Shown one piece after another: positions 1,986 through 64,000 of a stretch of 64,000 bases of DNA (position 1 is the first letter of the stretch; the number at the start of each line of letters is the position of its first letter). Where the stretch lies: contig JANJGN010000034.1 in assembly GCA_026770705.1 (NCBI GenBank), positions 7,316,001-7,380,000 on the forward strand, in the 5' to 3' direction. A model generated the notes under the pieces. It saw only the letters and a list, made by a program, of their open reading frames with translations. It did no database searches and was not told the DNA's origin. The DNA is from Isurus oxyrinchus. Lineage: Eukaryota. The position numbers and the translations under genes are program-made.

Positions 1986-3447
1986 CCAGTTCTGTACTAA
2001 CATGCGACCATTTACGTGCATTGTTGCTATTACCATCACCGGGACAGAATCATGCCTTAGGAAATGCGACAGTTCAGCTCTCAGTGCATCAGATATACCA
2101 GCAATTCCAACATTATCCATTCAGGGCCTTTAACTAAAGGAAGTTTCCCAAGGGACATATACAAGCTTGAAGAGAAAAAAAGATCAGATATACCAAGCTA
2201 TACAAAGAGATAATAGGATAGGCACTCACAAATAAGATCAAAGAGGCACGTTTCAAAAAACATCTACAAGGAAGAAAGAGTGATAGAAAGGCCGTGTGTC
2301 TTTCGAAGCGATATCGAGCTCTTTGGGACTTAGCATTGAAAGCTGCTGTTTGGTGGAGCAATTACTGTTACTGAGGACACCAACGCTAGAGTCACACCGA
2401 TATCTTCGAGAAGTTGGAAGGCATGACAGGAATGTGATATCATGCCGAGGTTTGAAAACAATGTTAAGAAATTATAAATTTGGGTGTTGCTTGAGCTCGA
2501 GTAATGTAGGAATGCAAGCAAATGAATAATAGTTCAGCGCAACTTAGAGTCAAAAAGGATACGTGCATCAGAGATTTGGGTGAGCAGAGGATCATTTTGC
2601 TGAAGTCAGATGGAAGATGAATTTCGGCTCCTACCAGGTAACCTGGAGGTAATCCCTCATGCAGGCGACACCAGACAGCAATGAAATAGATTCTATCATA
2701 TTCAGTGGACTAGCTCTATCACTTTGATATAGCATGCAATTTTATTTTAGGCACAGTTAACCAAGTAGCGCTCTGCGACATACATAGCTCGGATTGCAAC
2801 AACCTGTTGCTTTAACATAGCCCCTATAACATTGCACAGTCTCCTTTGGCACTTCTCAGGAGTGTGATCTGTCGAAGTACCATGTAAACTACATGAGGAG
2901 ATCGAGGGGCTAAACGGCCCATTGAAAGACCATCTTTATACGGGTGACAACACGAGTGGCGCCATGTAGATGCAAGTTATTATTTTAAGCAGCCTCAGTA
3001 CCATTTAAAGCACATGTGGGTTTACATTAGTCTGGACCAAAATGCGCAATAACGTTCAAAGCAATTCAACTCAACAGAGTTTAACATCAAGCGGGAGGTA
3101 TGATACCATTCGTCTTTCAGTATCAGCCAAGACCCGTTTTTGCATATTGATATAGTAAAGCAGAAATGCCTTAGTTGCTTTTATTTTTTCACAAGCTTTA
3201 AACGCTATCTCAATGGAGCAATCTGCATATCAAAGCGTTTTTCACTTAGGGCATGCTGCTTATCTTCATTGACTGGATATCAAATTCTACAAGTATCAAT
3301 CCATGCATCTGATTGTGTTCAATCGTATTCGTTCAGACCCATCGAGTACTATGAACCATTATTACATTCCTCCCACTTGCACAATTGTTAATCGTTCCAG
3401 GTGCACGTCAGATAATATTTCAACGTCTCCCTTTTCCTCAACTCCAG

Positions 3448-3483
3448 CTATCGAGAAGCTTAAAGAGAACATTACTGATCTAG
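3448..3483 (+). CDS. Micro-exon E1, 36 nt, [12 protein letters not shown]
   Basis: Acceptor ccttttcctcaactccag, donor gtgggt; paralogous to E7 (KLKENI). Confidence 0.85.
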   Translation, partial: LSRSLKRTLLI

Positions 3484-6400
3484 GTGGGTGAAATTATTGA
3501 GCAATGATCCATTATAAACCTGAAAAGTTGTTTCCTTGATTACTTTATTTGCCATAATTTACGTGGCCACATTGTGGAAAGCAACACATGAGCTGTGAAC
3601 ATTGTGTTACTTATTGCTTCTTAAGAATAAAGCAACCGTTGTGTTCCAATATAGAAATACCAAATGGATGCACAGTTAACAAAATGCTTGGGTCATTTAT
3701 GTCATTCAAAACTGATACATGTATATTTTCATCAGTCATTTGAAGTAGCCTTTGTCTGCCTGTTTTGGCTCTATGGTGTCCTTTTTGACGCTGAGATTAA
3801 AGCTGGTAGGCTTAACCCACTCCAGAGACATGAGCATGCATCACAGGTGAACCGGCCCCCACCTATTATTTCAGCAGCGCTGCATCGTAGATCCTCCATG
3901 TCCCAGTCTGTCCCCTGAGGTGGACACAAAATTATTCACTGCATTATTTCTAAGCTAGCAATGGCGTCCGGCCTCCTGAATTGATCAATAGCCTTTTCCC
4001 CTCAAATAATATCACTAGAAACAGAATGTATGGTAATTCACCTCATCTCTGTTTCAACGAATATAATCTTGATCACCACGTCCTCGAGATCTCCCGACTT
4101 GCGTGCCTGTTCCCAAATTCGGGATATGAAATTGTGCAGCCTTGGTGCTTCCACATTTCACAATTTCGGCAGTGCTCAGTCTGCATCAGGAGATTGGTTG
4201 TTTTTCAACCATTGAATCGCTTTTTCAATCTCACTCCGAGACAGAGTCCAATGGGCTATTGAGGAATGGAGTTGAAAGCGCTCAAGTTAGAGGCTGAATT
4301 AATGTTTAGGAGTCCATTCAAATGTTCTCTCTAGTGGCCACTGACTGTCTCCCTATCCGTGATGAACTTACTTCTAAGCTTGGCTCTCAGCAGGGTGTGC
4401 CTCTGATTGCCCAGGTCATAGACCCTCTTGACAACGATGGAGAAAATACGGATTTTGTTGGTGTCGGTGGGCTGCTGCATCTCACACACTCTTCATAATC
4501 ACCATTGCTCATCATGTTGCGCCCTTAATGCTGTACCGCTGTTTTCAACCACATGTAGGGTTGTTGGATTCCTCTTATGCTGTACTCAAGTTTCCGATCA
4601 ATGAAAGTTTTGAGCATATGCAAGATTAGATCTTGTATCCCTTTGCCACTTTCACCAAACCAGTCATGATGTTTCCTGGTAGAGAAAGTATCTCCACAGA
4701 TATTTGATATGGTCAACTGTAGGTTGATCAACCAGACCGGGCACCCTTGTAGCTCCCTTTGGCTGCACGTTGACATGTTGAAAGTAAGGCGCTGACTGAG
4801 AAGAGCAAAATTATTGGGACCTTTGAGACCTTTGATGTTTATTTTCATACATTATCGTTTTTTTTTTTCCTCCACTATTTGCGGAGAGGTTGGGGTAGCA
4901 TGCAGATTGGATATTGCAGTGGTTGGTTCAGCAGTTGCTAATATCTGACATGGCAGAGTTGATGCGGAGATCTCTGTGAAAGTTGACGTGTAATGTTTGG
5001 GCCATGGGTCTTGCCATGAGAACATTCTCCTCGTATCACTGGCAGCCCAGAGTATTAATTATGGCAAGATCTTGTCCTAGGCATTATCCCAGGAGCACTA
5101 CATTGGGGCTTGCTTTCCTACTCGCTTCTTGTCTATCAAACCCTTCCAGACATTCGTGAACTTCCAGACCCTGGCAATGAAATAACCGAGGATGATCAGA
5201 TTGTCACCTGCTGAGATGCAGGCTAGTGATTGCTCAAGGTTGTTCAACAATCCTTTTTTTTTCTAATCTGTTGACTCAAGTGTAGGAGCATATGAGCCGA
5301 TGACAGAGGCATGCTAATTCTTCGTTAGGGTGAGTCTAGAAGACATAAGGCACACACATATCCCACACGGGTGAGTAGTAAATACGCCAGAGATGTCCAT
5401 TTTTGCTCATGAAGCCAACTCAGTGAAGGGATCTTCATTTATGGACAGTACTTCCAGAAAATGATGTACTGACTGCCTTATTCCTTCAGTTGGCCTTCTC
5501 CCATCAGTTCAGTCTCACTTTTCCACAGAAATATCGATTTCAAAGCTTCAGAAGCACATATTTATCTGTAAATCACATAGGACGTATTGAGGTGTATAAG
5601 ACATTACAAAAATTGAGGCCTATCTATCTTGGCTTCTTTCTTTTTTTTAGCTATTCTTACGTTTTTCAGTTACTTTCTTTCCTTCCAGGATACCATCTTT
5701 CTGCCTACTCTTCTCTCTTATTTTATTTTGTAAGTTACTGGACAATTGCCAGCCATCCTCCAAGCATTGACTGAAATTATATGCCAGCCGCAAACAATGC
5801 AAATGTCTACACGGTGACTGTGAGTAATCTTGCTGTTCATAAACTCATGCCATATTGCATATGTTTCAATTAGGTCTAAAATTGAGCCGTAAGGACACGG
5901 GTAAATATGTGCATAAAGTTCATTATCTTAAATAAAACGTGAAAATGTAACTGAAATGTTAATAATTCTATCCAAGGTGCTTGCACTTGGCCCAGAGTTT
6001 TATGTTTTTTCTTTATGATTCACTTACCTTGCAACGCACTGTTCTGTTGATACAAATGGACACTTCCCCTGATAGAATCAGTAGTAAGAAATGCAAAAGA
6101 AGATAACAGTTTATTTATGCAGGTTCTCTTTCTTTGAAATTGCAATTACACCTCATTCACTTCAATCACGTACAGAGGGAGATGACATTTCATAATGACA
6201 AGGCCACAAAGCCGGCAGAATTGCATTGAGATTTCATTGTAAATGGTACCCAACAAGAAATCGCTTTTTCCTTTGTGGACTTTAACTCACGTCATATATC
6301 AGAAAGATTGTGGTGGGAGTGATGATCCCATTTATTCTGCTTACTTGGCCGTGTCAAATTTCACACCTCTATATCCCAAGCACATTAAGAGTCAAGGACA

Positions 6401-9400
6401 GAGGACAGTGGTTATTCGAACAATGACCTTTGTTTCAAAAGCATGTAGTTGACTTTCTAGTTAACCAGTAAGGGACTTGAAGAGAACAAATCCTTCAAGG
6501 TAGCAAGGCAGGTGGACAATGTGTTTAAGGAGGCATATGGAGCCCATTAATTTATTTGCCAAGGCACAGGGTAAAAGAACATGAAGGTTATGTTGGAAAT
6601 ATGCAAAACGTTATTTAAGCCACAACTTGAGTAACGTGTGAAGTAATGGTCACCTCAGTACAGAAAAAATGTATTGCATTTGGCAAGGTAGAGAGGGGAT
6701 TCACACGGATGTTGCTAACATTGTAAATGTACAGCTCTAAAAGGTGATTAAATGGGTTAGGGTTGTTCTCTTTGGAACAGCGAAGCTGAGGGCAGATTCA
6801 ATTGGCATGTACTAAATTGTGAGGGGCCTGGAAACTGTGGATGTGTATGGCAGAATTACTTCAGCAGGGATGAGGCGGGCAAGATTTCAATTGATTGGCA
6901 GTCGTATTAGCGATGGACTGAGTGGAGGTGGGAACACCCAGAGAGTTGTAGGGGTCTGGAACTCACTGTTTGATAAGCTTGTGGAGCTGGAAACCCTCAA
7001 CTCATTTAAAAAAAATTTGGATATGTACCTGAACTGCTTTGAACTGCAGGGTCACCGAACAAATTCTGGGAAATGGGATTAGGGGCTACGTGGCATTATT
7101 TTTCGGCCAGCACCATGGGCCAAGTGGCACCTTTTCGTGCCAGAACCGTTCTAAGATTCTAACTTGCTATGATGTCGTTACATGCATTTGACTATCGGTA
7201 ACATCATTTTCTTTCCCATTCTCCAACAAAGATCGTCTGTTTTGGTGCAGTTTCGGAGATTTTTCAAGCGTGTTCATCCATCTAAAGAATCTCAGTGTGC
7301 TAACAGTCCTCCTCAGTACAATTTTCAAAACCTGCAGCATAATCTGCTGATAAATAAAGGCAAAGTATGTGGAGTCAAGGGCCTAATGCCAGAATGGATT
7401 GCTCGTTGGCTTCAATACATAAAACAAAGTCTGGATTCAAACGGTAGTTAGTCAGGGTGACAAAACGCACGAGCTGGTTTTCCATAAGGATTAGCAAAGG
7501 GACTATTACTGTTCACAAATCACATTCATGATTTGAACAATGAAATCCAAAGAATTTCTAAATGTGCAGATGGCACAGAATTTGGGCGGGGTGGTGGGGG
7601 GGGTGGGGTGGGATATTTGGGATACAGAGAAGGACGGCAACAAATTACAGGATGTTATTACTAAAATTGTATTCCGTGCATATAACTGACAAATGAGCTT
7701 CAAAGCGTGAGAGCATCATTAGGGCATACAGAAAGACTATTGGGGCTATCAAGTGCGGGCTGGTTCTCTGCATCACAATCTGGGCAGTCCTCCTGTACCA
7801 TTCCATTGTCAAATCTCTCCAAGTGTATTTCACTGAAGTATCCATCAAATTCATTTTTGAAATAATTGATCGCCTCTGCTTCCAACATATCACTAGAGCT
7901 CGAGCTCAATTCAACAGTGTTCTCAGTATAAAAATAAAACTTCCCTTCATTCCCTCTGCCCCTCTTATTCAAAACGGCAGAACTGTGGCTCAAAGTCCTT
8001 CTATAATCGAATACTGAGAACAGCCTCTCTTTCTGTCCAACTTTTTGAATCCTTTAATTATCTTTTCCAATTGATGCAAGGCGAACGGGAGTTTCTTCGA
8101 CCTCCAAGATAATGCCAAAAAAAAGTAAAAAAACTGCCACAAGAGAAATGCTGGAAAACATCAGCAGGCTTGGCCGCATCTGTACTGTTATGAACAGAGT
8201 TCAAGTTTCGAATCCAACATGGCTCTTGCTCGTAAATGCATTGGGGACATTTGCAATCCGTTTTGGCTCATTTAATTAAGTTTAAAACTTTGCAAGAGTC
8301 TGCAAACTTTCCCCATGTTTATTACCTCTAAAAGCTTATTCGAAATATATATGAAACCAAATGATCAACAAAGTGCATCACAGGTTAAGTCAAGTTTCTA
8401 GTCAAATGTGGAGGTCAATTATAGAAAGTACAAGTCCAACTGAGGTAGAAGAGTTAGGAATTTGGAAGTGAAAATGCACCAATCACTTCAGGTTGCGTCA
8501 CAGGCTAGCAGTGCCATAACAAGAAGCAAATCACTGCACTTTTTTTCCAAAAGGAGAGCATTCAAAAGTAGGGCTATTTTGCTGAACTGACAATGAATCT
8601 TGGTTAGGCCATGAGTAGAGTTTTGTATACATTTTGTCGCTGCATTATTAAAAAATGGGGGCATTGTGTAGGGTGCATTGAAGTTTTACAAGGATCATAG
8701 CAGGAGTGCCTGGGTTTGTATGTGAGGAAAGGATAAAGAGCTTTGTTCTCTCTGGTCTTCAAAGAGAATTCTGAGAGGGAACGAATAGAGGTTTTTATAA
8801 TGATGGTCAGTGTTGTTAGAGTGAATACGGAGACAATTCTTCCTCTTGGGATAGGTGCATCTTTAGAGGCCATTGACATGAGATAGTAACAAATAAATTC
8901 AATAGGGAATTTCGAGGAATCTTCTTTTCTCAAAGAGTGATGAGAACGTAGCACAGGCTACAACAGAGGTGATCAAAGCGAGCGGCATTGATGCATGAAA
9001 TGGGCAGCCGATGAGACATGGGTGGGAGAGGGTAACGGAGAGTTACGATGCCAGATGTGGAAAGATGCAAGGAGACTTCAGTTATCTCTAACAGCTGCAT
9101 GCTCTCAGTGGGCCTTATGGCCTCTATCAGCGCCTTATATCTTTCCTAATTCTATGTGTCGTCAAGAAGTGTCTATTTCTGATCCATAATCCCGTCTTCA
9201 ATATTGGGACTGGAATGCTACATCTAATTGTATGCGTGGTGCTGACATTGAGTTCGCTGCTTGCACTAAATAACATTAAACTGTGTTTATCTTCCAACTG
9301 GACGTGTGTGCGAATGTATCAACGTACTTACATTCTTTTCAACTCAAAGGACCATTTCTATTTCGAAAACGTATGGTAGACAAATATGGGTTAAGCTATA

Positions 9401-12400
9401 TGCAGCAGAATAATCTAAGTGCAAACGCAAACACACATACTCTCTCTCTCTCCATTTTTCTCTCTCTCTTTCTCCCTCTCCCTCACCCGCACACACACAG
9501 AAACATTGACACTCACGCACATACACAGAAACATTGACACACGCACACAGAAACATTGACAGACGCATGCACACACACACAGAAACATTGACACACACAC
9601 CGCACACACACAGAAACATTGACACATACACGCACAAAAAGTGATAGAGAGAAACGGACACACACACACACACAAACACAGAATGATAGACAAACACACA
9701 TATACACTTAGTCACCCTTTTTACAGTTATGGTAGAATAGAAACTTTCGAAAACACAAAACAATCACTATCCTGCAACCAAAATCATTTCCATTCAAATG
9801 CACATCCCGAGAGTCTCATGTTGATTAAGTTTCTGTTCCAGGATAATTGCGAATGATTCATTTTAGTTTGTAAATGTGGCATCCGTAATCTCAATAGTAA
9901 AGCATGTTGCCATAACAATAACACATGCCTTTCATTGCCATTGGAGGTCTATATTATTCTGACCTTCAGAGGAGAAGAGCCTTCCTTTATGTGGTTCCAA
10001 ATTCCAGTCCACGTCCTTCATGCATGCACCACGTATCTGCTTGAGTTTGTTGTCTGATTTCTAGTAACCATTCGGGATCATAATTCCTATTACCCCTAAC
10101 CACTGTGCCTCTAGTTGATTCCCGATTTACTGACACCACAATCCTGAAAAATGTCCATGAATAGATGCATTGATTCTGGATTACTCATCATGAGTTTTAT
10201 AGTTTCCTACCAGTTCTGCCAGTAACAGGGATGCCACGAAATGTATCCAGATTAGAGGGACACTGAATGAAATTGTAATGTTTTACGCTGTTTCAATAAA
10301 ATAAACTTGCATTAACTTGTGCCTTTGATGAAGCACCACAATTTAAAGTGCGTGACAACTGAGTTATCTGCATAAACATATTCAATATGTCTCAATAGAT
10401 GCCCAAACTTGGCCAACGACGTGGGTTTAAAGCAGCAACACAGTATTACGTCGACCACTCATCATGTCGGTGGATGTGTATAATGCACTTGTCCAGGCAG
10501 AAGCAACAAAAGCAAGTTGGAAAATGTTAAATTTCAAACCAATTTGCCTATCCACATAACGGTTTATGGAGCAATTCATTTTTTTACATATACTGTGCAG
10601 TTAATTACTTGCACGAGCCATCAACTCATTTGATCCCACAGAACATAATGCCCACTTAACGTTTTAATCCCCCAGAATGCCAAGACTTAAGGGACAGCCT
10701 TGAAGCTAAAGGTACATGAATGCATTGTTCAGAATTGTTTGTTACTGTCGTTAAAATCCAGCTTCGAAAATTCTTACAAGTCGTAGTTTTCGTTAAAATG
10801 CAAGCAACGCAGTAGAGTTCACTTGTGGATGAGTGAAATTAACAAGCATATAAATTAAATTAAATGTACTTAGAGACTTGGTGAGCAAATTTGAATATTA
10901 TGTGAATCGGAGGAGAGGGCGATGGTGGGTGATGGCGGGCAGGTGGTGCCGAATCTTCACACTGGTTGGAGCCATGCCAAGTTAGATACAAGACTGTTAT
11001 GCTTTTTCTGAAACTGATCATGTTACCCCCAGGACAGAGTTTCAGGGGATTTCAGCAGTAATATTGGAGTCGCAGATATAGTCAGCCACCCAACATAATC
11101 TCATGAGTGAAACTGTTTAGTGATGGTGGCAACTTCGCACCTGGCAGATACTCAAACATTCGCACAGTGAGAAGCGGAAATCATTTAGTTCTGTGTTAAT
11201 GATTCTCAAGGAACGTCCACAGCACAAAAACGCCAGAGAAAGGCCATCTCCAAGAAAATGGATGCTAAGAATCTCGTCTTGATATTTAATGGCATAACCA
11301 TCGTTGACTCCCCATCATGAACTTACTAGGAATTACCAGTGGTAAGCGATTTATCGAGATAAGCCATGTAAATACTGTGGCTGTATTAAAAAGGTCAGAT
11401 GATGGTAATTTTTTCCCCAAATAAATCACCTCCTGATCTCTCAAAGCAAGTCCACCATCGACAATGTTCATGCATGGAGTGTGTTGGAATATGTATTCTC
11501 TCCAGCAGCCTAGAAGATTGTAGGTCAAGGACAATCAAAATCGGCATCATCCTGAATAATAACAGAAAGTGCTGGATTTGCTTAGCAGGTCCACCATAGA
11601 GGTATTGTGGCAGCAATGTGAACTACCTACAAGATGCAGTACAACATCTCGTCAAGGCTCCTTCAGCAGGCCCTTCCAATTCCGACACATCTACGAGTTA
11701 GAAAAGCCAGGGCAGTAGCCGTGTGTAATATCACTGTCTTTGTGATTTCATTTATGTCCCACAAAAACATGACTTGTGCTGATATCACCGTTTGCTCACT
11801 ACCACTTAGCCAAAATCCTGGAACTCACCGCCTAATAGCACTCTGACTGTACCTCCATCACATGCACTGCAGTGGTTGAACAAAACAGTTAGGTACCATG
11901 TTATCGAGGTAATTATGGAGACTCTAAATGTCAGCAATGCTCAAATCCAAAGAACGATTAAAAAAAGAGACCACACTTGGTGTGCTGCACAGAATTGTGC
12001 CCTCCGTACAATTCAGCAGGTCCACAGTTGGAGCACTGTTCACATTTCTGGCCAACAAATAATAGAAAATAATACATGGCTGTCTGAAGTGCAGAAAATC
12101 ATTGACAAGGATGATTCTAGAGCAGGGAGAAAACAATGAATGAGCTGAGGTAATATTCTCCAACAGAGGAGACATAATAGAGGTTTCAAAAATTATGAAA
12201 CAGTTTGATCGGCTAGTAGTATGGAATTTACTTCTATAATTGGGAGAAAATAAACTAGCAGAGATAGCGGAGCTATCATAAGGTAGTCATGAATAAACTA
12301 AAGAAGGAAGTCAGGCTAAACATATTTATGTGGAGAGTGTAGCCACATTGGAATGTTCTACTAAATGGAGTGTTTGTGGGAATAAATACAGCAAGTACTA

Positions 12401-41982: not shown

Positions 41983-42048
<66 letters not shown>

Positions 42049-57000: not shown

Positions 57001-60000
57001 GTGGAGTATAATGTGCAAACAAGTGTGGAGCGCTCCAGTTTGGTAGTTGGAACAGATGTACAGACTATTGCTTAAATGGTGAGAGATTAGAAAGTGTAGC
57101 TTTGCAAAGATGCATGGGTGTCCTATTCAATAAGTTACTGAAAGCTAACATGCAGATGCAGCAAGCAGATAGAAATGCTGATTGTATAATAGCCGGCATC
57201 GCAGGGGGATTTGAGAACAGGAGTTGCGAAGTCTTGCATCAATTGTATGGAACTTTGGTTACACAGTGCCTTCCCTCCTGCACACAGTTTCGGGGTGTTA
57301 CTTTGGGAAGGATGTCATTGTCACGGAGGGAGTGCAACAAGAGTTCAGCAGACTTGTTCTCCTAATGGCGGGGCTGTCCTATGAAGATAGTTTGCCAAAC
57401 TGAGCCTGTATTCCCCAGTGATTCGGAGGATGAGAGGTGATCTCATTGAAACCTACTAAATACTTAAATGAGTAGACAGGGTAGACACAGGTAAGGTAAT
57501 TCCATTTGTTGAGGAGGTAAAAACCAGGGGACACAATTACAATATAAAGAGGGGGCGGTGGGGCGGGGCACTTAGGACCGAGAAGAGGATGTCTTTTTTC
57601 ACTCATAAGTTTGTCAACCTTGGAATTCTCTACCCCAGAGGACAGTGGAAGCTCAGTTGCTGAGTATGTTTGAGGCAGAGATTGAGAGATTCTTAAATAC
57701 CATGGCAAAGATATCTATGGGGGCAGTTTCGGAAAAAGGCATTGAATGGAAGGATCAGACATAATCATATTGAACAGCGGAGCAGGCTCGATGGGATGGG
57801 CTGAGTGGTCTGCTCCTGCGCCTGTGTTGCTCCATCAGTTTCTCTTACGATATTACAGTCTCACTACATCACCACTCCCTCCATGTTTCTTCGCTGGAGG
57901 AATTACAGGTTGAAGCTATTTTCGCCTTTGAATTGGAAATGAAAAGTTGAAATTTCAACTCATTTACCAACAGGGCAACCGAATTCTTGTTCCAAGGGCT
58001 TTCTGAATAGATCATAGCAAGGGTTTGTGGGTGTTCAAGACTTCCTGAATGGCCACATACCTTGTCCACCTTCGACATCACCACGTCATGCTCAGTGATA
58101 GCTATGGTTCGATGGGTGGAGCTCCTGCCATTTGCACTGGTTGATGCAGAATGCGAGGATGAATTGAGATTTTTGGCTACAGAAGTCCTGTCTGACACCG
58201 CATTGCTGTACAGAGGACCATGGATGGGGGGAGCAGGGGGACTGGGTGGCTGAGCTGATAGGGCCGCATAAGAAACATTACCGGGGTTCCAGTCTGGTCA
58301 CTCCGGCGGGCACAGATGGTCCAATAGTTTTGTTTTTGAAAAACCAGGGAACTCCCTGACTCGGACACACTTACTCCACAAGTAGGATCACTAAAAACAC
58401 AAATAACCACAGTGCAGTTTGTGAATTCTTCTCATGTGCGAATTAACTGCAGCCTTCCCTACGTTATAACATGAGTTGACCGTAAAGCAGTTCATCATAT
58501 GCGGTGCACTTTATAAAATCCTTCTACCCTCAAAGCCACTATAATTCAATCGTTTAAAGGTACAAGCGAGAGAAAAGATAAACATAGCGGCATTCTTAAC
58601 TTGTTGATACCAAGCAGATTGGATTCACTTTTTAATTCCAGATGGGGGTATTTTGCAACAAAAGATCAAAGACTTGGGTAAGCGGAATATTTACTAGTTC
58701 GAGTTAAGAACAGATAATGTGAATTACAAACTTTACCGATGTAACACGCTGGACAACTCTAATATCACTGTGTGCAATTTCGTCTGTTGAGAAGTTTCAC
58801 ATTCAGCTCTTAACCAGACCCGCTGATATAATCTGCATTGTTCACCACAAATAAAAACACGTCACAAACAAGTGTAGGCGAACTTGTCCGAGAAGGTAGG
58901 CCAATTGACTGAAAGTGCATGAGTTACTGGAACGGCACACACCCAGCAAAGTGGATAATATTCAGCAAGGTTATGGGGTTCATCAAGGATCCTTCCAAAC
59001 CCGCGAGCACTACCATCTAGAAAGACAACGGCAACAGATAAATGGGAACACCACCGCCTGGGAGTTCCCCTGCAAGTCACTCACCATCATGACTTGGAAA
59101 TATGTCGCCGTTACTTCACTGTGGCTGGGCCAAAACCCTTGAACTCCCTCCCTAACAGCACTGTGGGTGCACCTACGCCACATAGACTGCAGCGGATCAG
59201 AAAGGCAGCTCACCACCACCTTCTCAAGAACAGCTAGGGATGGGCAATAAATGCTGGTCCAGACAGCTAAGCCCACATGCCGTGAATGATTTTTTTTTAA
59301 ATCAATCTAACGTCTGCTTTCGAAGTAGTGAATTAATAGGCAGATGAATTCTCTGCAATTTACCCGAATGCAATTTCCCTTTGGAAGCCATGCCATTTAT
59401 GTGGCCGATCTAGGCAAGGTTACTGTGAATTACATAATCTAAGATGTTAGTGGCAGATGTTGCTGTTCAGAGAAGGTTAGGGGAAAAAAGTGACCACCAA
59501 GCGGAAATGTTTTGGCTCCCGAAAACGTGAAGTACCGAAACCTGCTGGCCTCCGGTTTCAAAATCACCCATACTTTTTGCTTGTGCTTCTTCAACCAGCT
59601 TCACCTAACTCAGCCTTTACATGATGTCCGAGTGAAACCAGTAATTAGATATTCTCTGCCCTCTCAACAGAAAATAAATTAAAAGAGAAAGTGAAAGGTA
59701 AATGGAAGCAATCAATTGCGTTTCGGGAATATTGACTCGTGCTGCCTGTAGCCTGTTTCACGTGAACATCCTCCAGAGATTAAATAACCCCGTGACTGTT
59801 GCTTTTAGAACTGGAATCTAAAGTCCCGTTTGAAGGTGAACAAAAAGGAATTATAAAATAATACGATGTGGAAAGGGGCCGTTATCCCAATTCCACCGGA
59901 AAATTAACAGGGCGCTCGGTATTTTGACCCTACCAGACAATGCAAGTTGACGCCGAATGCATGACCTGCGACAGCGCCAGGTAGTCGAAACTAAAAGGAA

Positions 60001-61965
60001 TACCTGCTTTTCCAAAACGCAGCTCATGATCTAAGGACATCACAAAGTGCTTTGAAGCTGACAAAGTAAATTTGAGGCGTGGTTGGTTGAGTAATATCGG
60101 AATCTCGGGATCGAATTAGCGCAAAGAAATCCCCCTCAACAAGAAATATGACAATGGAAAATCATCTATTTTAATTGCTTAATTGACTCTTACATATTGG
60201 CCACTGCAATTCCGAGATACTTCCAAGTGGTTTTATTCGCCCAACTGATTGGATATGTTTAAAGTTTAATCGAAAAGATTGCAACTCCAAAAGTGCAGCA
60301 TTCACTCCCGATTCACCCTTCGGCATCGCACAATTACTACAGGACTGCCCTCTGACTCTGCAGCACATCCTTACCATTGCATTGCATTGCCAGTCCAGAT
60401 TAGTAGTCACTGGAGAGGGATTCAGAAACCACAACCTTACGCTTCAGATGCCTCAATGAAACAGCATGAGCCAAAGTTGACGCATCAGCTTGATTGGCAA
60501 CCCGGCCATCTCTTTCAACATTCATTCCTTCTATCACAGACGCACAGTGGTAGCTGTGTGTACCATCTACTAAATGCATGGCAGCAACTCATCAAGGCTC
60601 TTTCGACAAATCATTCCAAACACTCAACCCCCACCACCTAGATGGATAACGGTAGCAGAGACATGGGAACACAACCAAGTGCACCTCAGCCACAAATCAT
60701 CCTTACCTAGAACTATATCGCCGTACCTTAAATTTCGCCGGTCAAAATCCTGGAACTCCTTTGCTAACAGCACTATGGATGTTTCAACAGCAGATGGACA
60801 GCAGACGTTCAGGGAGGCAGCGCACACCAGCTTCTCAAGGGGATTCGGTGGTAAATACTGGTCAAACCAGCAACGCCCACATCCCGTGACAGATACTATT
60901 TTTTTAAGCTGTATCAACAAACGATGGGGAATGTAATGCAAAGGCAAGAGGAGTGGACGTTCATGTAAATCATGAACACAACATAGGCCATCAAGAGATT
61001 GGGAATGCTTTGTAAATAGTAATATTGCTGCCTTTTGCTTTAATGGATGGGGATTGGATTTATCTTCAATATATTTACCTTCTCTATTGCCAAGAAACAG
61101 ATGAGGCTTTACGTGAAAAGACTGCAGGTAATACATTGAAACGCTGAATTTCTGATTTCTGAGCACTTTGGGGAAAGCGTTGGTGATACCAGGCAAAGTT
61201 GCTACACGATATGCTGCCCATGGTTCACACTGTGACAGAGTTGCGCTCCTGCTGTATAAGGTTTCAGTGGGTTACAACATGAAGGGAAAATGTTCCACCT
61301 GGTCTTACCGATTCTTGAGAGGAAAAGGTTAAGTCAAATTGAGAAGTGGACTATTATGATCACATCATTGGCTAGGATTGATAGCCAGTCAACAATCTAA
61401 TGATTTAAATTGAAGTTGCAACTTTGATCACAGTGTGCCTAATATTGGGCAAAGCGTAAGGTAACAATATAATAATGGAGCAGTAAAGAGGCAGAATTAA
61501 ACAAAGAACTTAAGAATTTCAGCAAAAAAGGCGGTGGTATAAAGGACTGTTAAAAAAGGGTCAAGAGATATCCGCTCCCATAGAAGAGAGAAAACAAGCT
61601 GACGGATGTTTGAGGAGAATAGAGGAGACAGTAATCTCCCAGCGCCAATAGTTCTGCTGTTCCAAAATAATATTAAAATAACACTTTTACTGAGAGACTC
61701 ACCGTGTGCAGCACAACCACCCACACCCCCACAATACCCCGACATTCCATAAATATACCTCACTTTAAAGCGGATAACAAATTCAGTGGCAACACCCAAA
61801 GGACTGGTGAGATGTTGAGGGCGAAAACTAAGGACCGTATATATTCTTTTTTCACTCAAAGGTTTTATAACAGCTAAAGACGTTCCTTTTCTCTCTCCAG
61901 AAATTGCGACTCTGAAGAAGTCTCTGAGTGCAGCAGGTCAGAGAAAAACTAAAACATATGGCATA

Positions 61966-62002
<37 letters not shown>

Positions 62003-63553
62003 CGCGTAAATATATTTATATAGATAGATAAATAGATGGACAGGCAGATACACAGACAGATAGACAGAGATATAGAGAGATAGTTAGTAAGGCATGCAGG
62101 TAGTTATGTACTTAGGTAGATAGTTGTCTGTTTAAGAGGCCTCATAATATTTTAGCTTATTTCAATATGTGGAATTCGCTCCCACAAGGAGCAGCACGAG
62201 CTGAAAAGCATAGATGCATTTACATGAAAGCTGGACAACTACACACTATGTAATTATTAGAGTTAACAATGATGCTGCAATATATTTTAACCGTTCATGA
62301 GATGCAGAAGTCGCTTTCAAGGTGCCCGTGCCTAATGAACACCTTGACAGAGGTGGTGAGCCGCCTTCTTGAACAGCTGCAGTCTTCTGGTGTATTTTGT
62401 TAGAAGTGGGTCAATTTGTTCCTCCGCCAAATCCATAGAGACTGCGGCACTAGCATTTCAGGGCATACACCACATCAATGGCTGTGATCGTCTTACGTTT
62501 GGCCTGCTCCATGTAGGTGACCGCATCTCTGAAGAAGTTTCCAGAATACCCTTCAGTATCCTGTGGGGCTCCTCGTAGATCAGACCCAAAACCCGCTTGA
62601 CACCGCCACGGGCTGGTTTGATGATGCCCGGGATCTTCTGGAGTGGGTTCACCTAATGCTTAATTATGGCGGCATTTCAGGATTATCCCAGCCACATTCA
62701 CTTCACGTAACGATGACATCTTTCCAACTCAGCCTTGTGTATGATTTGGAGTGGAATTTCAAGCTGATGGTGCTTTCATGCCCTTGTTTCTCTTGTTGAT
62801 CTAGACATTGGACAACCCTTGCTCGGAAAGTGTTGTCAATTGATGTTGCAGAGTTGTTGGAGTGCCTCTTGCAAATGATACACAGTGTGTGTCGAATTTG
62901 GTGGCAATGAGTTCTTGAAGTCATTGGAGTGACAGTCCAGTGCGATCTTTTGGCCTTGGTGGTGTCGAGCACTGTCAGTTTTGGTTCAGTTGTAATCATC
63001 CAGTCAAGCGGGACCATCCAATCACATCCATGGTTTGTGACCAGCAAATGGTGCACTGTGATTTGGCAGTCACAAGGTGATTTACTTGCCTCAGAATATT
63101 TTGACCTTTTCTTGCGGACACAATATGTTCTGCCTCATTCAACTTTGTTGTTTACAATCCTAAATTTTGCAATTAAATTAAATTAAACTTTTGCAATGCT
63201 AAACGTGTTAGCAGTTAAGGGTTCCACAACTGTGATGGTATTCAACATTAAAGAGGTGTGGCTTTCACTCCCTCTCAGGCCCACTGCCAGACCTATGTTT
63301 TACCCCGTATTTATATACATTTCGTTTTGCTAGTGCATAGAATAAATACAATCCAATAAAACACATATAGCTATATATTGCTGCTTAATTTCTGTACATC
63401 CGCACACATTCATTTGTCCTAAAACATCAGAGAAGTGTTTATTGCAACAAATATGTTTCTTTATTGACCACCTGCGAAATATCTCCACGCTGAACCATTC
63501 TTTTTCTCTCTTATTAAAATTAACAGAGGGGAAGCTGGCCAATATAACGAAAG
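3448..63553 (+). CDS. Internal portion of a micro-exon gene encoding a long coiled coil of 21-aa (3-heptad) units; 18 exons, 558 nt, 186 aa, incomplete at both ends
   Basis: Spliced phase-1 translation: [186 protein letters not shown]. No stops in this frame, while several exons carry stops in frame 0. Only two exon sizes, AG acceptors and GT/GC donors. Introns are 993-9802 nt. Confidence 0.88.
3740..5510 (-). mobile_element. Decayed RTE-clade LINE (APE endonuclease to start of RT)
   Basis: Minus-strand motifs RLTL...[11 protein letters not shown] (about 5280-5340) and [12 protein letters not shown] (ORF 4525..4848), typical of RTE ORF; many stops. Confidence 0.75.
5874..5900 (+). CDS. Micro-exon E2, 27 nt, GLKLSRKDT
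   Basis: Acceptor atgtttcaattag, donor gtaaat; fits 27-nt class pattern (hydrophobic position 4, KD at 7-8). Confidence 0.75.
6450..7165 (+). mobile_element. CR1 LINE 3' fragment
   Basis: ORF 6819..7082 contains [11 protein letters not shown]...[10 protein letters not shown] (CR1 ORF2 C-terminus); ends in ttctaagattcta tail. Confidence 0.85.
7300..8060. mobile_element. CR1 fragments (RT part on +, 3' end on -)
   Basis: [15 protein letters not shown]...WIARWL on +; [16 protein letters not shown] on -. Confidence 0.7.
8490..9160 (+). mobile_element. CR1 LINE 3' fragment
   Basis: Degenerate ORF2 C-terminal and 3' UTR sequence shared with other CR1 copies in the window. Confidence 0.7.
9425..9705. 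repeat. Compound (CT)n/(CA)n microsatellite with embedded ACAGAAACATTGAC minisatellite unit
   Basis: Five copies of cagaaacattgac separated by variable (CA) runs at about 9497-9625, plus degenerate copies. Confidence 0.95.
10676..10711 (+). CDS. Micro-exon E3, 36 nt, [12 protein letters not shown]
   Basis: Acceptor gttttaatcccccag, donor AG/gtacat; Leu at 5 and 9 as in the 36-nt class. Confidence 0.75.
11285..11945. mobile_element. Fragments of an abundant non-LTR retroelement 3' end ('family B' in this report)
   Basis: Shares caaggctccttc..cagcaccttccaa / caaaatcctggaactc motifs with copies at 14530, 29990, 52730, 58975 and 60440. Confidence 0.65.
12900..13420 (-). mobile_element. CR1 LINE 3' fragment
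   Basis: Reverse complement of CR1 3' motifs (ttgaatttgcttccaccgcctttcag). Confidence 0.65.
13588..13614 (+). CDS. Micro-exon E4, 27 nt, DQALAKKDK
   Basis: Acceptor ctttgttcctattag, consensus donor AG/gtgagt; paralogous to E8. Confidence 0.9.
14530..14830 (+). mobile_element. Family B non-LTR 3' end
   Basis: ggacaagggc...aacaccatcacctgcaggtttccctccaagccacac...gcaattagggaagggtaataaatgctggcc; near-identical segments recur more than 8 times in the window. Confidence 0.8.
15199..15234 (+). CDS. Micro-exon E5, 36 nt, [12 protein letters not shown]
   Basis: Acceptor ttcccattttcctaacag, donor gtgagt; paralogous to E9 (LEKLRK). Confidence 0.9.
18391..18417 (+). CDS. Micro-exon E6, 27 nt, EESVSTKNK
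   Basis: Acceptor ccttgttcattacag, donor AG/gtaagc. Confidence 0.87.
18490..19620 (-). mobile_element. CR1 LINE 3' fragment
   Basis: ORF 18654..18923 (-) [26 protein letters not shown] matches the CR1 FSLExRRLRGDLIEVYKI motif. Confidence 0.85.
20040..22690 (+). mobile_element. CR1 LINE (RT to 3' end) interrupted by an about 1.27-kb insertion at about 20676-21945
   Basis: CR1 sequence breaks after cattttggtaggaag...gacaatatcat and resumes at taaaataaagtgtaaaattctaaag; ORF 22119..22334 [16 protein letters not shown]. Confidence 0.75.
23630..23765. mobile_element. Penelope-associated terminal repeat fragment (same family as the hairpins at 28187 and 44668; also about 8115-8235 and 12390-12490)
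   Basis: tactgcagttgctggaaatctgaaataaaaatagggaatgctgaaagaacccagcaggtc...tttcgagtc. Confidence 0.6.
24462..24497 (+). CDS. Micro-exon E7, 36 nt, [12 protein letters not shown]
   Basis: Long polypyrimidine acceptor tttttttcttattccttctctgtag, donor AG/gtgagc. Confidence 0.92.
25791..25817 (+). CDS. Micro-exon E8, 27 nt, EQEMAKKDR
   Basis: Acceptor ttcctattag (last 10 nt identical to E4 acceptor), donor AG/gtaatg. Confidence 0.88.
26848..26883 (+). CDS. Micro-exon E9, 36 nt, [12 protein letters not shown]
   Basis: Pyrimidine tract ctctttcctgttctcccactcctgccccaag (AAG acceptor), donor gtgagc. Confidence 0.87.
26930..27335 (+). mobile_element. Relatively young CR1 3' end
   Basis: ORF 26910..27242 [13 protein letters not shown]...[12 protein letters not shown]; ends in ctgtgattctgtgatt tail. 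Confidence 0.9.
28187..28385. mobile_element. Palindromic Penelope-associated insertion with 13-bp TSD inside an L2-like fragment
   Basis: 85-bp arms 28186-28270 and 28271-28355 with 2 mismatches and no loop, plus a 30-nt unpaired tail; flanks tattcagactcta / tattcaaactcta. Confidence 0.85.
29157..29183 (+). CDS. Micro-exon E10, 27 nt, EQKLLIEGK
   Basis: Acceptor ttcatgtccattttag, donor AG/gtaaaa. Confidence 0.8.
29990..30690 (+). mobile_element. Family B non-LTR 3' fragment
   Basis: Matches the 14530-14830 and 46590-47830 copies. Confidence 0.8.
30700..31740 (-). mobile_element. CR1 LINE fragment
   Basis: Reverse complement of CR1 ORF2 (accagaaccacacatagtac..., ctttcctgaatagtgggattac). 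Confidence 0.65.
31895..32912 (+). mobile_element. L2-like 3' fragment followed by CR1 3' end
   Basis: [21 protein letters not shown] (L2-type LHWLPV..RIDFKILLL motif) then [17 protein letters not shown] (CR1). Confidence 0.75.
33775..33801 (+). CDS. Micro-exon E11, 27 nt, ALRINNESK
   Basis: Acceptor ctcttcttgttcaatttag, donor AG/gtaaga; breaks the 36/27 alternation. Confidence 0.78.
34397..34425. repeat. Poly-C run (29 nt)
   Basis: Seen directly. Confidence 0.97.
34530..36900 (-). mobile_element. Decayed CR1 LINE with a + strand CR1 3' end nested at about 36340-36590
   Basis: ORF 34659..34958 (-) [31 protein letters not shown]; nested copy ends in acaattctgtgattctgtg. Confidence 0.7.
38929..40081. 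mobile_element. Candidate solo LTR (about 1.15 kb) inserted in a SINE-like repeat
   Basis: Starts TGTGA and ends TCACA(ACA); AATAAA near 39917; splits the host motif aaggaca/..agtgaac; TSD only 3 of 4 matching. Confidence 0.4.
40511..40537 (+). CDS. Micro-exon E12, 27 nt, DEQVQKLQR
   Basis: Acceptor ctttctctcattttattacag, donor gtaagt. Confidence 0.85.
41953..42043. repeat. (TC)n then (TA)n microsatellite
   Basis: Seen directly. Confidence 0.97.
42608..42643 (+). CDS. Micro-exon E13, 36 nt, [12 protein letters not shown]
   Basis: Acceptor ttgattctttcag, donor gtgagt; paralogous to E9 (KLQD). Confidence 0.9.
43745..44230 (-). mobile_element. Decayed Penelope-like element 3' part, related to 1060-1985
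   Basis: Reverse complement of the GIY-YIG C-terminal region (ctttgcagacagaaggaacatg) and terminal cttttcgtcttgc motif. Confidence 0.6.
44668..44805. mobile_element. Second palindromic Penelope-associated insertion with 14-bp TSD inside a CR1 3' end (44510-45060)
   Basis: Perfect 48-bp arms 44668-44715 and 44722-44769, 6-nt loop cagcat, unpaired tail; flanks atgaggaaaaactt / atggggaaaaactt. Confidence 0.85.
46590..47830 (+). mobile_element. Family B non-LTR element, internally deleted (endonuclease region plus 3' end)
   Basis: GDFN-like gggacttcaatg and [15 protein letters not shown] (APE C-terminal LDL motif), then family B tail. Confidence 0.65.
48813..48839 (+). CDS. Micro-exon E14, 27 nt, EEKLQLKVN
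   Basis: Acceptor ttctttttgttcacacag, donor gtgagt. Confidence 0.9.
48980..50745 (+). mobile_element. Long decayed CR1 LINE (RT to 3' end)
   Basis: YLDFQIAFD-like tatctggattttcaaattgcgttcgataac; [10 protein letters not shown] (FADDTKL motif) in ORF 49499..49759. Confidence 0.85.
50925..51325 (+). mobile_element. CR1 3' end
   Basis: [22 protein letters not shown]. Confidence 0.85.
51336..51410 (+). pseudogene. Decayed tRNA-Leu-like sequence
   Basis: GGCACTGTGGCCGAGTAATCTAAGG...TCCAGTCT...GTTCAAATCCC aligns by eye to vertebrate tRNA-Leu (GGTAGCGTGGCCGAGCGGTCTAAGGCGCTGGA...TCCAGTCTC...GGTTCGAATCCC); anticodon and acceptor stems broken. Confidence 0.65.
52545..53410. mobile_element. Family B 3' end on - strand with a + strand family B copy nested at about 52730-53035
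   Basis: The minus copy breaks at ccagcagtgatatc and resumes at atatatacagttccaagtcaggatg. Confidence 0.75.
54240..54410 (+). mobile_element. tRNA-headed Deu-domain-type SINE fragment
   Basis: gtggctcagtgg (A-box-like) followed by ggctgacact...cactgagggaatgct...tgtcagaggtgctg...cagatg; family assignment from memory. Confidence 0.5.
54650..57835 (+). mobile_element. Long decayed CR1 LINE ORF2
   Basis: ORF 56240..56608 [14 protein letters not shown]...[16 protein letters not shown]...[14 protein letters not shown]; [12 protein letters not shown] in ORF 56864..57046. Confidence 0.92.
55025..55850 (-). mobile_element. Relatively young CR1 3' end nested in the older CR1
   Basis: ORF 55196..55408 (-) [20 protein letters not shown]; agaatcacagaatcacag tail; same subfamily as 26930-27335. 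Confidence 0.9.
58642..58677 (+). CDS. Micro-exon E15, 36 nt, [12 protein letters not shown]
   Basis: Acceptor ttcactttttaattccag, donor gtaagc. Confidence 0.87.
58975..59295 (+). mobile_element. Family B non-LTR 3' end (another copy at about 60440-60895)
   Basis: Well-preserved match to 14530-14830. Confidence 0.8.
59671..59697 (+). CDS. Micro-exon E16, 27 nt, ENKLKEKVK
   Basis: Acceptor ttctctgccctctcaacag, donor AG/gtaaat; similar to E14 (E.KL..KV). Confidence 0.88.
61901..61936 (+). CDS. Micro-exon E17, 36 nt, [12 protein letters not shown]
   Basis: Acceptor ttccttttctctctccag, donor CAG/gtcaga. Confidence 0.87.
61963..62090. repeat. (TA)n and (GATA/GACA)n microsatellite
   Basis: Seen directly, starting about 27 nt downstream of exon E17. 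Confidence 0.95.
62395..62633 (-). pseudogene. H4: 5'-truncated histone H4 retrocopy inserted in a family B element (about 62310-62930)
   Basis: Minus-strand translation [66 protein letters not shown] matches H4 from about residue 27 to the C-terminus, with a deletion, a frameshift and a stop; flanked by tcttctggtgta / tcttctggagtg. Confidence 0.93.
63527..63553 (+). CDS. Micro-exon E18, 27 nt, EGKLANITK (GC donor)
   Basis: Acceptor ttctttttctctcttattaaaattaacag, donor AAG/gcaagt, the typical context of a GC-AG intron. Confidence 0.78.
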
Positions 63554-64000
63554 GCAAGTACCCATACAACCACGGGGAGGGGCTTGTTGCATATGCTAAC
63601 TTGCCTATTGTGCATAATCGATCATTCCGCGTTACAAAAACCAATTAATTTCATTTCCAGTAGTGCGGCCTCCTGTAATTTGATTCTGGAAGATTCTTTA
63701 GATTTTGAGTGGAGGCAGAAAAAAGGGTTTTGTGTCGGGATCTTATTTTCATTGATAGCAACAATGGAAATTAAACGCAAGTAATGGACATCACGTGTGA
63801 TATTTTATGGCCTGGTCATGCCGGCGGGGCCATAACATGTGGCGAGCTGTTCAAAAGCCCATTGGCGTTGGCATCGCCGGAATCAGAAATTCTCGCTGGC
63901 GTGTGGCTCCAAACAGGTGGGCTATCGGCAATTGCCTCTTGAAGGAAAGTTCTATTAGTTGCGGGGTTGGGGGCGGAGGAAGGTGGCGGCGTGTTGCAGC

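What the first reader, a model, noticed from the sequence alone, without database searches (positions are those of the whole stretch)
3448..63553. Hidden gene built from alternating 36-nt and 27-nt micro-exons, each pair encoding exactly three coiled-coil heptads
Seen: 18 exons in the order 36,27,36,27,36,27,36,27,36,27,27,27,36,27,36,27,36,27, all phase 1-1 with AG and GT/GC splice sites, under 1% of a 60-kb repeat-filled span and not resolved by the ORF track. The spliced frame is open for 186 aa. Within the 21-aa unit, positions 2, 5, 9, 12 and 16 are mostly hydrophobic (position 5 is Leu in all 8 long exons; position 4 of the short exon is L/V/M/I in all 10) and position 19 is usually Lys, a 3-4 heptad register. 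Established: chicken B-G genes and butyrophilin/MOG/ERMAP genes encode heptad tails with 21-33-nt exons, and CD23 encodes 21-aa stalk repeats with 63-nt exons. Inference: this is a lineage-specific, tandemly expanded coiled-coil spacer with a 36+27 split module that I do not recognise from a described gene, possibly an immune-type receptor.
Basis: partly seen in the sequence, partly recalled or inferred. Interest (0 to 1): 0.92.

Follow-up and report, generated by a model that had tools for sequence, protein, structure and literature searches.

The report
Megabase shark micro-exon coiled-coil B30.2 gene
These tiny exons are the middle of a shark gene about a million bases long that appears to spell out a very long rod-shaped protein in some 250 tiny pieces and tips it with an immune-type binding domain; it belongs to an old cartilaginous-fish family that databases hold only under misleading names.

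Summary
All 18 exons are confirmed, in the stated order (558 nt, one open frame). They are a small part of a far larger gene. The 21/27/36-nt phase-1 array runs on one strand for 1.04 Mb and ends in an intact B30.2/SPRY exon 116 kb past the window. I catalogued 134 exons in fully read DNA and found 40 more in samples; the estimate is about 257 exons and 2,600 aa. Duplicated exons keep splice sites and frame beyond neutral expectation. Cys sits at heptad d (39 of 45). Four paralogues lie on the same contig and two near MHC class II. Their B30.2 domains form one clade with chimaera, skate, ray and shark database models. The chimaera (1,697 aa) and skate models show the same 12/9-residue modules behind a signal-peptide-like start, with no Ig or RING. 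It resembles a butyrophilin/BG heptad tail plus B30.2 but fails both memberships: no Ig or TM exon was found. Best reading: a secreted, disulfide-linked rod presenting B30.2 heads (about 0.5). The window's copy has lost 241 kb of 5' exons. Splicing and expression were not shown.

The parts
1..64000 (+). The whole window lies inside the gene. Parts outside it, in contig coordinates G000:C34: ten 21-nt exons at 6459146-6527086; the 36/27 array from 6538882 to 7481193; candidate 24-, 30-, 21- and 27-nt exons to 7495809; terminal B30.2/PRY-SPRY exon at 7496442-7496962, 116 kb past the window's end
   Evidence: Pfam SPRY E 3.4e-12; BTN3A1 B30.2 E 5.8e-20
3448..3483 (+). 36-nt phase 1-1 heptad exon
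   Evidence: intact copies at 81-83% flank identity in the neighbouring paralogue
5874..5900 (+). 27-nt exon (weak acceptor)
10676..10711 (+). 36-nt exon
   Evidence: duplicate 56.5 kb downstream
13588..13614 (+). 27-nt exon
   Evidence: its duplicate has a GC donor
15199..15234 (+). 36-nt exon
18391..18417 (+). 27-nt exon
24462..24497 (+). 36-nt exon
25791..25817 (+). 27-nt exon (weak acceptor)
26848..26883 (+). 36-nt exon (AAG acceptor); its downstream duplicate has lost its donor
29157..29183 (+). 27-nt exon; its downstream duplicate has also lost its donor, so a whole 21-aa unit drops out of that copy
33775..33801 (+). 27-nt exon
40511..40537 (+). 27-nt exon
42608..42643 (+). 36-nt exon
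48813..48839 (+). 27-nt exon
58642..58677 (+). 36-nt exon
59671..59697 (+). 27-nt exon
59809..59835 (+). possible extra 27-nt exon (below the profile threshold; kept in the downstream duplicate with a better donor); uncertain
61901..61936 (+). 36-nt exon
63527..63553 (+). 27-nt exon with GC donor

Best explanation
The exons are coding micro-exons from the middle of one giant gene (about 1.04 Mb, about 257 exons estimated). It belongs to an old, cartilaginous-fish family built as: short hydrophobic leader, linker exon, long heptad rod, B30.2 head. SHOWN from sequence: all rod exons are symmetrical phase 1-1, so any can be duplicated, lost or skipped without a frameshift. A 21-nt exon is one heptad (g-f) and a 36+27 pair is three. 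Leu/Ile fill a positions; Leu, Cys and Lys fill d. The gene grew by tandem duplications of 5-57 kb. INFERRED: the exons are spliced into a rod of about 2,600 aa (about 390 nm at 0.15 nm per residue, figure recalled). The leader is a cleaved signal peptide, so the protein is secreted or luminal. Two chains form a parallel coiled coil stapled by Cys at d positions and present paired B30.2 heads. The rod works as a length-tunable spacer or multimeriser in which register and length matter more than exact residues, like an extracellular version of a butyrophilin/BG heptad tail plus B30.2. An innate-immune or mucosal ligand-binding role is the guess. That the exons are a real gene of this family I put at about 0.9; the confidence given is for the whole mechanism including secretion.
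For: Strand- and length-specific excess of 27/36-nt exons. A profile trained elsewhere finds 42 + strand hits (40 distinct) against 1 - strand hit in 158 kb of held-out samples. 134 catalogued exons (37+97) join with 0 stops; alternation is 75 of 96 steps against a shuffle mean of 48.4, maximum 68. At 36 duplicated exon sites with 10% intron divergence: splice bases changed 3 of 144 (14.5 expected, P 2e-4), indels 0 (5.9 expected, P 0.003), stops 0 (6.5 expected, P 0.0015), a/d residues changed 14 of 108 against 54 of 234 elsewhere (P 0.03). B30.2 dN/dS is 0.45 between paralogues. The B30.2 clade has SH-aLRT 100 (12 of 30 rows). C. milii XP_042192744 scores 236 on the exon-module profile against 100+-16 for shuffles (max 144) and 132 for heptad-block shuffles (max 162); skate XP_055510696 scores 31 against 8+-4 (max 17; block max 27). 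12 of 16 internal indels between database isoforms or versions are 9, 12 or 18 aa. Both full-length relatives begin with a short hydrophobic stretch and have no 19-residue window above 1.0 hydropathy later. Paralogues 2 and 3 share a 111-nt exon that opens with the tail of such a stretch, followed by heptad exons. Cys lies at d in 39 of 45 cases and at a in 2; 16 of 22 Cys in the chimaera rod follow E/D four residues earlier, as in module position 5. Two family members lie about 9-11 Mb from the nearer MHC class II alpha exon on C21.
Against: No spliced read or transcript was seen for any junction. Heptad exons have overall dN/dS 0.97 and 91.0% identity against 89.9% in introns, so residue identity is close to neutral. 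The selection test is biased: each pair has at least one intact copy by construction, and triplicated segments are not independent. The first coding exon was not found in any paralogue. No signal-peptide predictor was available. The chimaera leader is followed by a basic cluster that would also fit a membrane anchor. N-glycosylation sequons are not enriched (6 against 3.7 expected, 1 against 0.6). The window's own copy lacks the 111-nt exon. Module scores were not above shuffles for 2 of 5 clade relatives tested (catshark P0161, P0009), and one TRIM control (P0053) scored just above its plain-shuffle maximum. About 327 of the middle 485 kb were not read. No ligand, tissue or function is known.
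Confidence: 0.5

Rival explanations
1. Same gene family, but the N-terminal hydrophobic stretch is an uncleaved signal-anchor. The rod and B30.2 face the cytosol, as in butyrophilins and BG, making an Ig-less tether or scaffold several hundred nm long.
For: Butyrophilin and BG heptads and B30.2 are cytoplasmic (PMC8813856 and PMC4046983, passages). Basic residues follow the hydrophobic stretch in the chimaera model and in the 111-nt exons. No sequon enrichment.
Against: The hydrophobic stretches are short (best 19-residue mean 1.5-1.6), and the skate leader is followed by acidic residues. The Cys bias to d (39 of 45) suits interchain disulfides (positional preference recalled, not from a paper read here).
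Confidence: 0.22
2. Not exclusive of the others: the window's copy is 5'-damaged. It lost a 241-kb block holding the linker exon and early repeats. It now makes a leaderless cytosolic rod-B30.2 (enterophilin- or zipper-protein-like; its first remaining exon has an in-frame ATG), or it is a recently silenced copy.
For: Paralogue 2 matches this copy at 76-83% on both sides of a clean junction but carries 241 kb more. Paralogue 3 shares exons of that block, so the block is ancestral. The 111-nt exon has 2 copies in the genome, neither in this gene.
Against: Duplications inside this copy (82-94% identical, most of them younger than the gene duplication) still show selection on frame and splice sites. 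The B30.2 exon is intact with dN/dS 0.45. 22 kb of upstream sequence is retained and may hold exon 1. The loss could be specific to this assembly or individual.
Confidence: 0.55
3. An ordinary butyrophilin or BG-like receptor whose IgV/IgC/TM exons lie further upstream or were missed.
For: Best solved relatives are BTN3A1 B30.2 domains. 21- and 27-nt phase-1 exons precede B30.2. An IgV exon lies 35 kb upstream of the array.
Against: That IgV is a broken copy (stop and frameshift) of the IgV beyond the gene's 3' end, carried along in the tandem duplication. 0 of 130 open frames of 80 aa or more at three 5' ends match an Ig, RING or B-box family, while the control IgV scores E 1e-10. For paralogue 2 the whole 42 kb back to the previous gene's last exon was read. 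Database relatives have SPRY/PRY only.
Confidence: 0.07
4. The 1.04-Mb array is two or more genes or transcription units, only the last ending in B30.2.
For: Only 158 of the middle 485 kb were read, and 6 of 23 samples held no exon. Repeat subtypes change along the array.
Against: Exons continue on the same strand in 17 of 23 samples. No further close B30.2 or linker exon was found inside the span. The duplicated unit holds one B30.2 exon.
Confidence: 0.12
5. Chance splice-like motifs or dead pseudo-exons multiplied by segmental duplication.
For: Overall dN/dS near 1 in heptad exons.
Against: Strand and length specificity, selection on frame, and matching modules in chimaera and skate models.
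Confidence: 0.02

Closest known systems
Butyrophilins (BTN1A1, BTN2A, BTN3A)
   Same: Heptad repeats followed by a C-terminal B30.2 (PMC8813856 and PMC4046983, passages). BTN3A1 is the best solved match (E 5.8e-20). Some family members are on the MHC chromosome.
   Different: No IgV, IgC or TM exon found. Hundreds of heptads rather than a few. The B30.2 forms a separate long-branched clade. A 36+27 split module.
Chicken BG proteins, including the zipper protein
   Same: A long coiled coil encoded by many tiny exons, with copy-number variation and alternative splicing of these exons (PMC4046983, passages).
   Different: BG has IgV plus TM, 13-36 exons of 21 or 24 nt and no B30.2. Here there are about 257 exons of 21/27/36 nt, a B30.2 head and no Ig.
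Enterophilin-1 (guinea pig)
   Same: Ig-less heptad repeats plus B30.2 (architecture recalled; PMC13749957 passages only mention its SNX1 interaction).
   Different: Mammalian, cytosolic and about 45 heptads (recalled). No sequence test was possible. The shark family's full-length members start with a hydrophobic leader.
TRIM class IV / 'A33-like' proteins
   Same: Coiled coil plus PRY-SPRY. Databases give the short relatives these names.
   Different: No RING or B-box in any clade member examined. The coiled coil is built of micro-exons.
Vespryns/ohanin and nematode SPRYSECs
   Same: B30.2/SPRY domains that are secreted (PMC12730704, passages; PMC5071358, search listing).
   Different: Short proteins without a rod. 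Not compared by sequence; no relationship is claimed.
C. milii XP_042192744 'nuclear-pore anchor-like' (older XP_007898089 'myosin-2 heavy chain-like') and skate XP_055510696 'TRIM69-like'
   Same: Same B30.2 subclade (SH-aLRT 89), same 12/9-residue modules, leader-rod-B30.2 layout.
   Different: Automatic gene models with misleading names, 1,697 and 295 aa against about 2,600+ here. I found no description of them as a family.

Membership tests
Butyrophilin | C-terminal B30.2/PRY-SPRY domain | tested here: met
   Pfam SPRY E 3.4e-12 over cut-off; BTN3A1 E 5.8e-20; PRY itself not scored by Pfam
Butyrophilin | Heptad repeats before B30.2, in small exons | tested here: met
Butyrophilin | Extracellular IgV and IgC domains | tested here: not met
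   0 of 130 open frames at three 5' ends; regex and tblastn negative (tblastn was insensitive, finding the control only at E 0.007); database relatives lack Ig
Butyrophilin | Transmembrane segment before the heptads | tested here: not met
   No TM exon among candidates; no internal hydrophobic window in full-length relatives. An N-terminal anchor is not excluded.
Butyrophilin | B30.2 grouping with BTN sequences | tested here: not met
   Separate clade, SH-aLRT 100, quick tree, midpoint root; only two outgroup rows are named butyrophilin
Butyrophilin | gamma-delta T-cell or phosphoantigen function | not testable with these tools
   none
BG | Long coiled coil from many 21/24-nt exons | tested here: inconclusive
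   Ten 21-nt exons at the 5' end, but 124 of 134 catalogued exons are 27 or 36 nt
BG | Single IgV plus TM, no B30.2 | tested here: not met
TRIM | RING and B-box N-terminus | tested here: not met
Chondrichthyan leader-rod-B30.2 family (defined here) | B30.2 clade with motif W-x-[LIVM]-[LMV]-[LMV]-W-[NT] | tested here: met
   The motif (derived after seeing the sequences) hits 22 of 168 held proteins, all in or attached to the clade, plus this gene and the C21 member
Chondrichthyan leader-rod-B30.2 family (defined here) | 12/9-residue heptad modules | tested here: met
Chondrichthyan leader-rod-B30.2 family (defined here) | N-terminal hydrophobic leader | tested here: inconclusive
   Present in the chimaera and skate models and partly in paralogues 2 and 3; the exon is missing from the window's copy; exon 1 not found
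Chondrichthyan leader-rod-B30.2 family (defined here) | Secretion and disulfide-linked oligomer | not testable with these tools
   inference only

The most novel reading that the evidence does not exclude
Cartilaginous fishes have kept, since before the chimaera-shark split, an undescribed MHC-linked family of secreted B30.2 proteins on disulfide-stapled coiled-coil rods. Rod length ranges from about 15 to about 400 nm and is set by duplication, loss and skipping of in-frame micro-exons, in genes of up to 1-1.5 Mb with more than 250 exons. This would put a normally cytosolic recognition domain outside the cell on a tunable molecular ruler, and make these among the most exon-rich vertebrate genes.
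Probability: 0.4. Interest if true: 0.88.

Novelty: new variant of a known kind. Interest (0 to 1): 0.74.

Why it matters
It exposes a class of very large genes that standard annotation reduces to stubs named TRIM39-like, A33-like or myosin-like. It is an extreme natural test of micro-exon splicing: about 250 exons of 21-36 nt in 1 Mb, against 13-36 in chicken BG. It offers a basal jawed-vertebrate, Ig-less relative of the butyrophilin/BG heptad-B30.2 module, which bears on where that module came from and on the open question of what BG tails and orphan B30.2 domains do (PMC8813856, passage). If the protein is secreted, it is a new kind of extracellular B30.2 protein with adjustable reach.

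Tried and rejected
RNA evidence: no RNA holder was listed for the B30.2 exon plus UTR. Laying three RNA-guess contig sets and one DNA-like set on window 10400-30000 gave RNA depth mainly at repeats. None of the 15 joints shown (372 more not shown) joined predicted exons. This is no evidence either way. The DNA-like run covered 30 of 30 bins in pieces about 86% alike.

Complex prediction for two copies of C. milii residues 425-560: no answer, score 0.12.

C-type lectin as the downstream domain: 0 of 133 matches lie on C34.

IgV at C34:6424335 as the N-terminus: rejected, it is a broken duplicate. A hydrophobic frame at 6440506 has no splice sites, and the ATG candidate beside it is not conserved in frame.

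Other exon-1 candidates: those at 4840063 and 3968484 look like LINE-tail repeat sequence by eye, and the first is not kept in the paralogue. A hydrophobic, ATG-led frame near C34:4852700 is single-copy, out of phase with the linker exon as assembled, and unresolved.

Word-indexed homologue searches found little: one TRIM25-like hit, only two C. milii models, one bird butyrophilin. The atlas returned generic SPRY clusters. The linker exon has no Pfam match and only a trivial match to the chimaera N-terminus. A protein search with it found only itself.

No decayed 36-nt exon was clearly found in the 27-27-27 run. Whole-chain Fourier analysis was uninformative because of register shifts. A phmmer --max Ig scan timed out.

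Catalogue handling: threshold set at the best minus-strand score; 8 overlapping or implausible rows were dropped and 3 near-threshold rows added by hand, and 1 further overlapping row that caused a false junction stop was dropped.

Literature: searches listed no paper describing this family (only 20 of 1,301 listed). A shark skin-mucus proteome lists one 'A33-like' accession that I could not assign (PMC10707392, passages). Supplements were not read and subscription journals are not covered.

Full report
Observation. The window is G000:C34:7316001-7380000 of a 4.98-Gb genome. It is a shark, most likely a lamniform: a family member's B30.2 lies within 0.07 changes per column of a basking-shark model. 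All 18 exons were recovered in the stated order; their joined phase-1 frame has no stop, against 21 and 14 in the other frames. A generic splice-site scan shows the excess only at 27 and 36 nt and only on the + strand (over 424 kb, 43 of 112 + hits are 27 or 36 nt, while no length exceeds 4 of 81 on the - strand). Heptad claims hold, except that position 12 is hydrophobic in only about half. One further probable exon (61101) and one possible exon (59809) were missed.

Extent. The array continues both ways. Downstream it ends at C34:7481158, followed by candidate 24-, 30-, 21- and 27-nt exons and a terminal 172-codon exon at C34:7496442-7496962. That exon is a SPRY domain over Pfam's cut-off, with BTN3A1 B30.2 as best solved match. 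Upstream the array begins with ten 21-nt exons from C34:6459146. The span is 1.04 Mb. I read both ends in full and 158 of the middle 485 kb. A profile trained on the ends catalogued 37 + 97 exons after hand edits listed under Tried and rejected. On the held-out samples it gave 42 + hits (40 distinct) and 1 - hit; 6 of 23 samples were empty. Extrapolation gives about 257 exons and 2,630 aa. Alternation of 36 and 27 is 75 of 96 steps against a shuffle mean of 48.4, maximum 68; the median intron in the 3' block is 2.1 kb.

Register. A 21-nt exon is one heptad g-f; a 36+27 pair is three. Position a holds mostly Leu/Ile (141 of 191). Position d holds Lys 54, Leu 50 and Cys 39. 39 of 45 Cys are at d and 2 at a, although d is 16% of positions. 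Sequons are not enriched.

Selection. Self-comparison shows nested tandem duplications at 82-94% identity. At 36 aligned exon sites, splice bases changed 3 of 144 times (14.5 expected; one is GT to GC), with no indel (5.9 expected) and no stop (6.5 expected); core residues changed half as often as others (P 0.03). The two lost donors are adjacent, removing one whole 36+27 unit from the duplicate of window 26848 and 29157, which keeps the register (one case only). Against this, overall dN/dS in the rod is 0.97: frame, length and core are constrained, surface residues are not. The test is biased toward intact copies and the pairs are not independent. B30.2 dN/dS between paralogues is 0.45.

Family. 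Five related B30.2 exons lie on C34 (this one and four at 92, 58, 45 and 45% identity) and two on C21 (38 and 35%). A 27-nt exon pattern hits 15 times on C34 and twice on C21, of 19 hits; the control pattern gave 2. The C21 locus has a 36- then 27-nt exon and lies about 9-11 Mb from the nearer MHC class II alpha exon, among more than 120 other B30.2 exons. An exhaustive search returned models from skate, catshark, electric ray, basking, epaulette and whale shark and C. milii under TRIM-like, A33-like, butyrophilin-like or myosin-like names. They form one clade apart from TRIM and BTN domains (SH-aLRT 100, quick trees). The window gene groups with skate XP_055510696 and C. milii XP_042192744 (support 89). 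Both contain the 12/9-residue modules above shuffled and heptad-block-shuffled controls; so does the ray model, while two catshark models do not. 12 of 16 internal indels among 7 isoform or version pairs are 9, 12 or 18 aa. This is indirect support for splicing, since such models usually rest on RNA data (recalled). The family therefore predates the chimaera-elasmobranch split.

N-terminus. The skate and chimaera models start with a short hydrophobic stretch and go straight into the rod. Paralogues 2 and 3 share a 111-nt phase 1-1 exon that opens with eight mostly hydrophobic residues and is followed by heptad exons. No Ig, RING or B-box family matched any of 130 open frames of 80 aa or more at three 5' ends; the control IgV scored E 1e-10. 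Frames crossing fetch boundaries were not covered. The IgV upstream of the window's gene is a broken duplicate of a separate IgV-TM gene downstream. Exon 1 was not identified. The window's copy matches paralogue 2 on both sides of a clean junction but lacks 241 kb that includes the 111-nt exon. This copy may therefore be leaderless or recently silenced, although selection acted on it after the gene duplication.

Mechanism. Shown: symmetrical micro-exons encoding heptad modules, growth by tandem duplication, and a B30.2 head. Inferred: splicing into one rod of about 390 nm, a cleaved signal peptide, a parallel dimer cross-linked through d-position Cys, and avid ligand binding by paired heads in an innate or mucosal role. 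I give this 0.5, a cytosolic N-anchored rod 0.22, a true butyrophilin 0.07, several genes 0.12 and chance 0.02. That the window's copy lacks a working leader is a separate 0.55.

Comparison. It resembles the butyrophilin/BG heptad tail plus B30.2. Butyrophilins have Ig, TM, few heptads and B30.2; BG has IgV, TM, 13-36 exons of 21 or 24 nt and no B30.2 (PMC4046983 and PMC8813856, passages; PMC12841164, passages, reports butyrophilins in cartilaginous fishes and variable heptad numbers in squamates). It fails membership of BTN, BG and TRIM. Enterophilin is the nearest architecture by recall. Seven literature searches listed no description of the family; supplements and subscription journals were not covered. 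One earlier AI report from another genome (e1-8029465) reached a similar reading for a gene of about 300 kb. It is not independent evidence and came after my reading was set.

Verdict. A real feature and a new variant of a known kind. Interest 0.74. The main gaps are direct splicing evidence, the first exon and function.

Noticed in passing
G000:C34:7513578-7513928 and 7524026-7524148 (L035:3578, L036:4026): A separate intact single-IgV plus TM gene (V-set E 1e-10, weak PVRIG-like hit) just downstream. Five related IgV exons cluster at C34:13.07-13.73 Mb, nectin-like by eye.
   Followed up: partly
G000:C34:6424335-6424685 (L079:9335): Broken duplicate of that IgV exon (stop and frameshift); it marks the edge of a tandem duplication of about 1.09 Mb.
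   Followed up: yes
G000:C34:4827827-6396336: Paralogue 2 appears to span about 1.55 Mb, larger than the window's gene. Paralogue 3 spans at least 4005537-4817018. Paralogues 4 and 5 are on the minus strand. None was read in full.
   Followed up: partly
G000:C21:82-118 Mb: More than 120 B30.2 exons in a huge cluster beside MHC class II alpha exons (79.7 and 80.8 Mb), including runs of near-identical copies.
   Followed up: no
G000:C43:0.02-5.96 Mb: About 90 C-type lectin-domain exon matches on one contig, probably an expanded NK-complex-like cluster.
   Followed up: no
G000:C34:7421533-7462531: Youngest internal duplication: a unit of about 13 kb present three times at 92-94% identity, each with an intact 36+27 pair. 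A further exon-like site in two copies lacks a good 27-nt donor.
   Followed up: partly
G000:C34:4852690-4852755 (L117): Single-copy GC-rich stretch with an ATG-led hydrophobic frame ending at a strong donor, 6.7 kb upstream of paralogue 2's linker exon. It is out of phase as assembled, next to a G run; possibly exon 1.
   Followed up: partly
window 15199-15234 and duplicates: Some 36-nt exons have a weak internal donor after 21 nt, and their first seven codons resemble the 21-nt exons. This hints that the 36+27 module and the 21-nt exon share an origin.
   Followed up: no
P0038 residues about 900-1010 (C. milii XP_042192744): A Thr/Asp/Pro-rich 8-residue tandem repeat interrupts the chimaera rod, mucin-like by eye.
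   Followed up: no
window 9443-9636, 31235-31327, 34397-34425, 41972-42044, 61963-62080: Simple tandem repeats in introns. Dispersed high-copy repeats account for the depth peaks.
   Followed up: no
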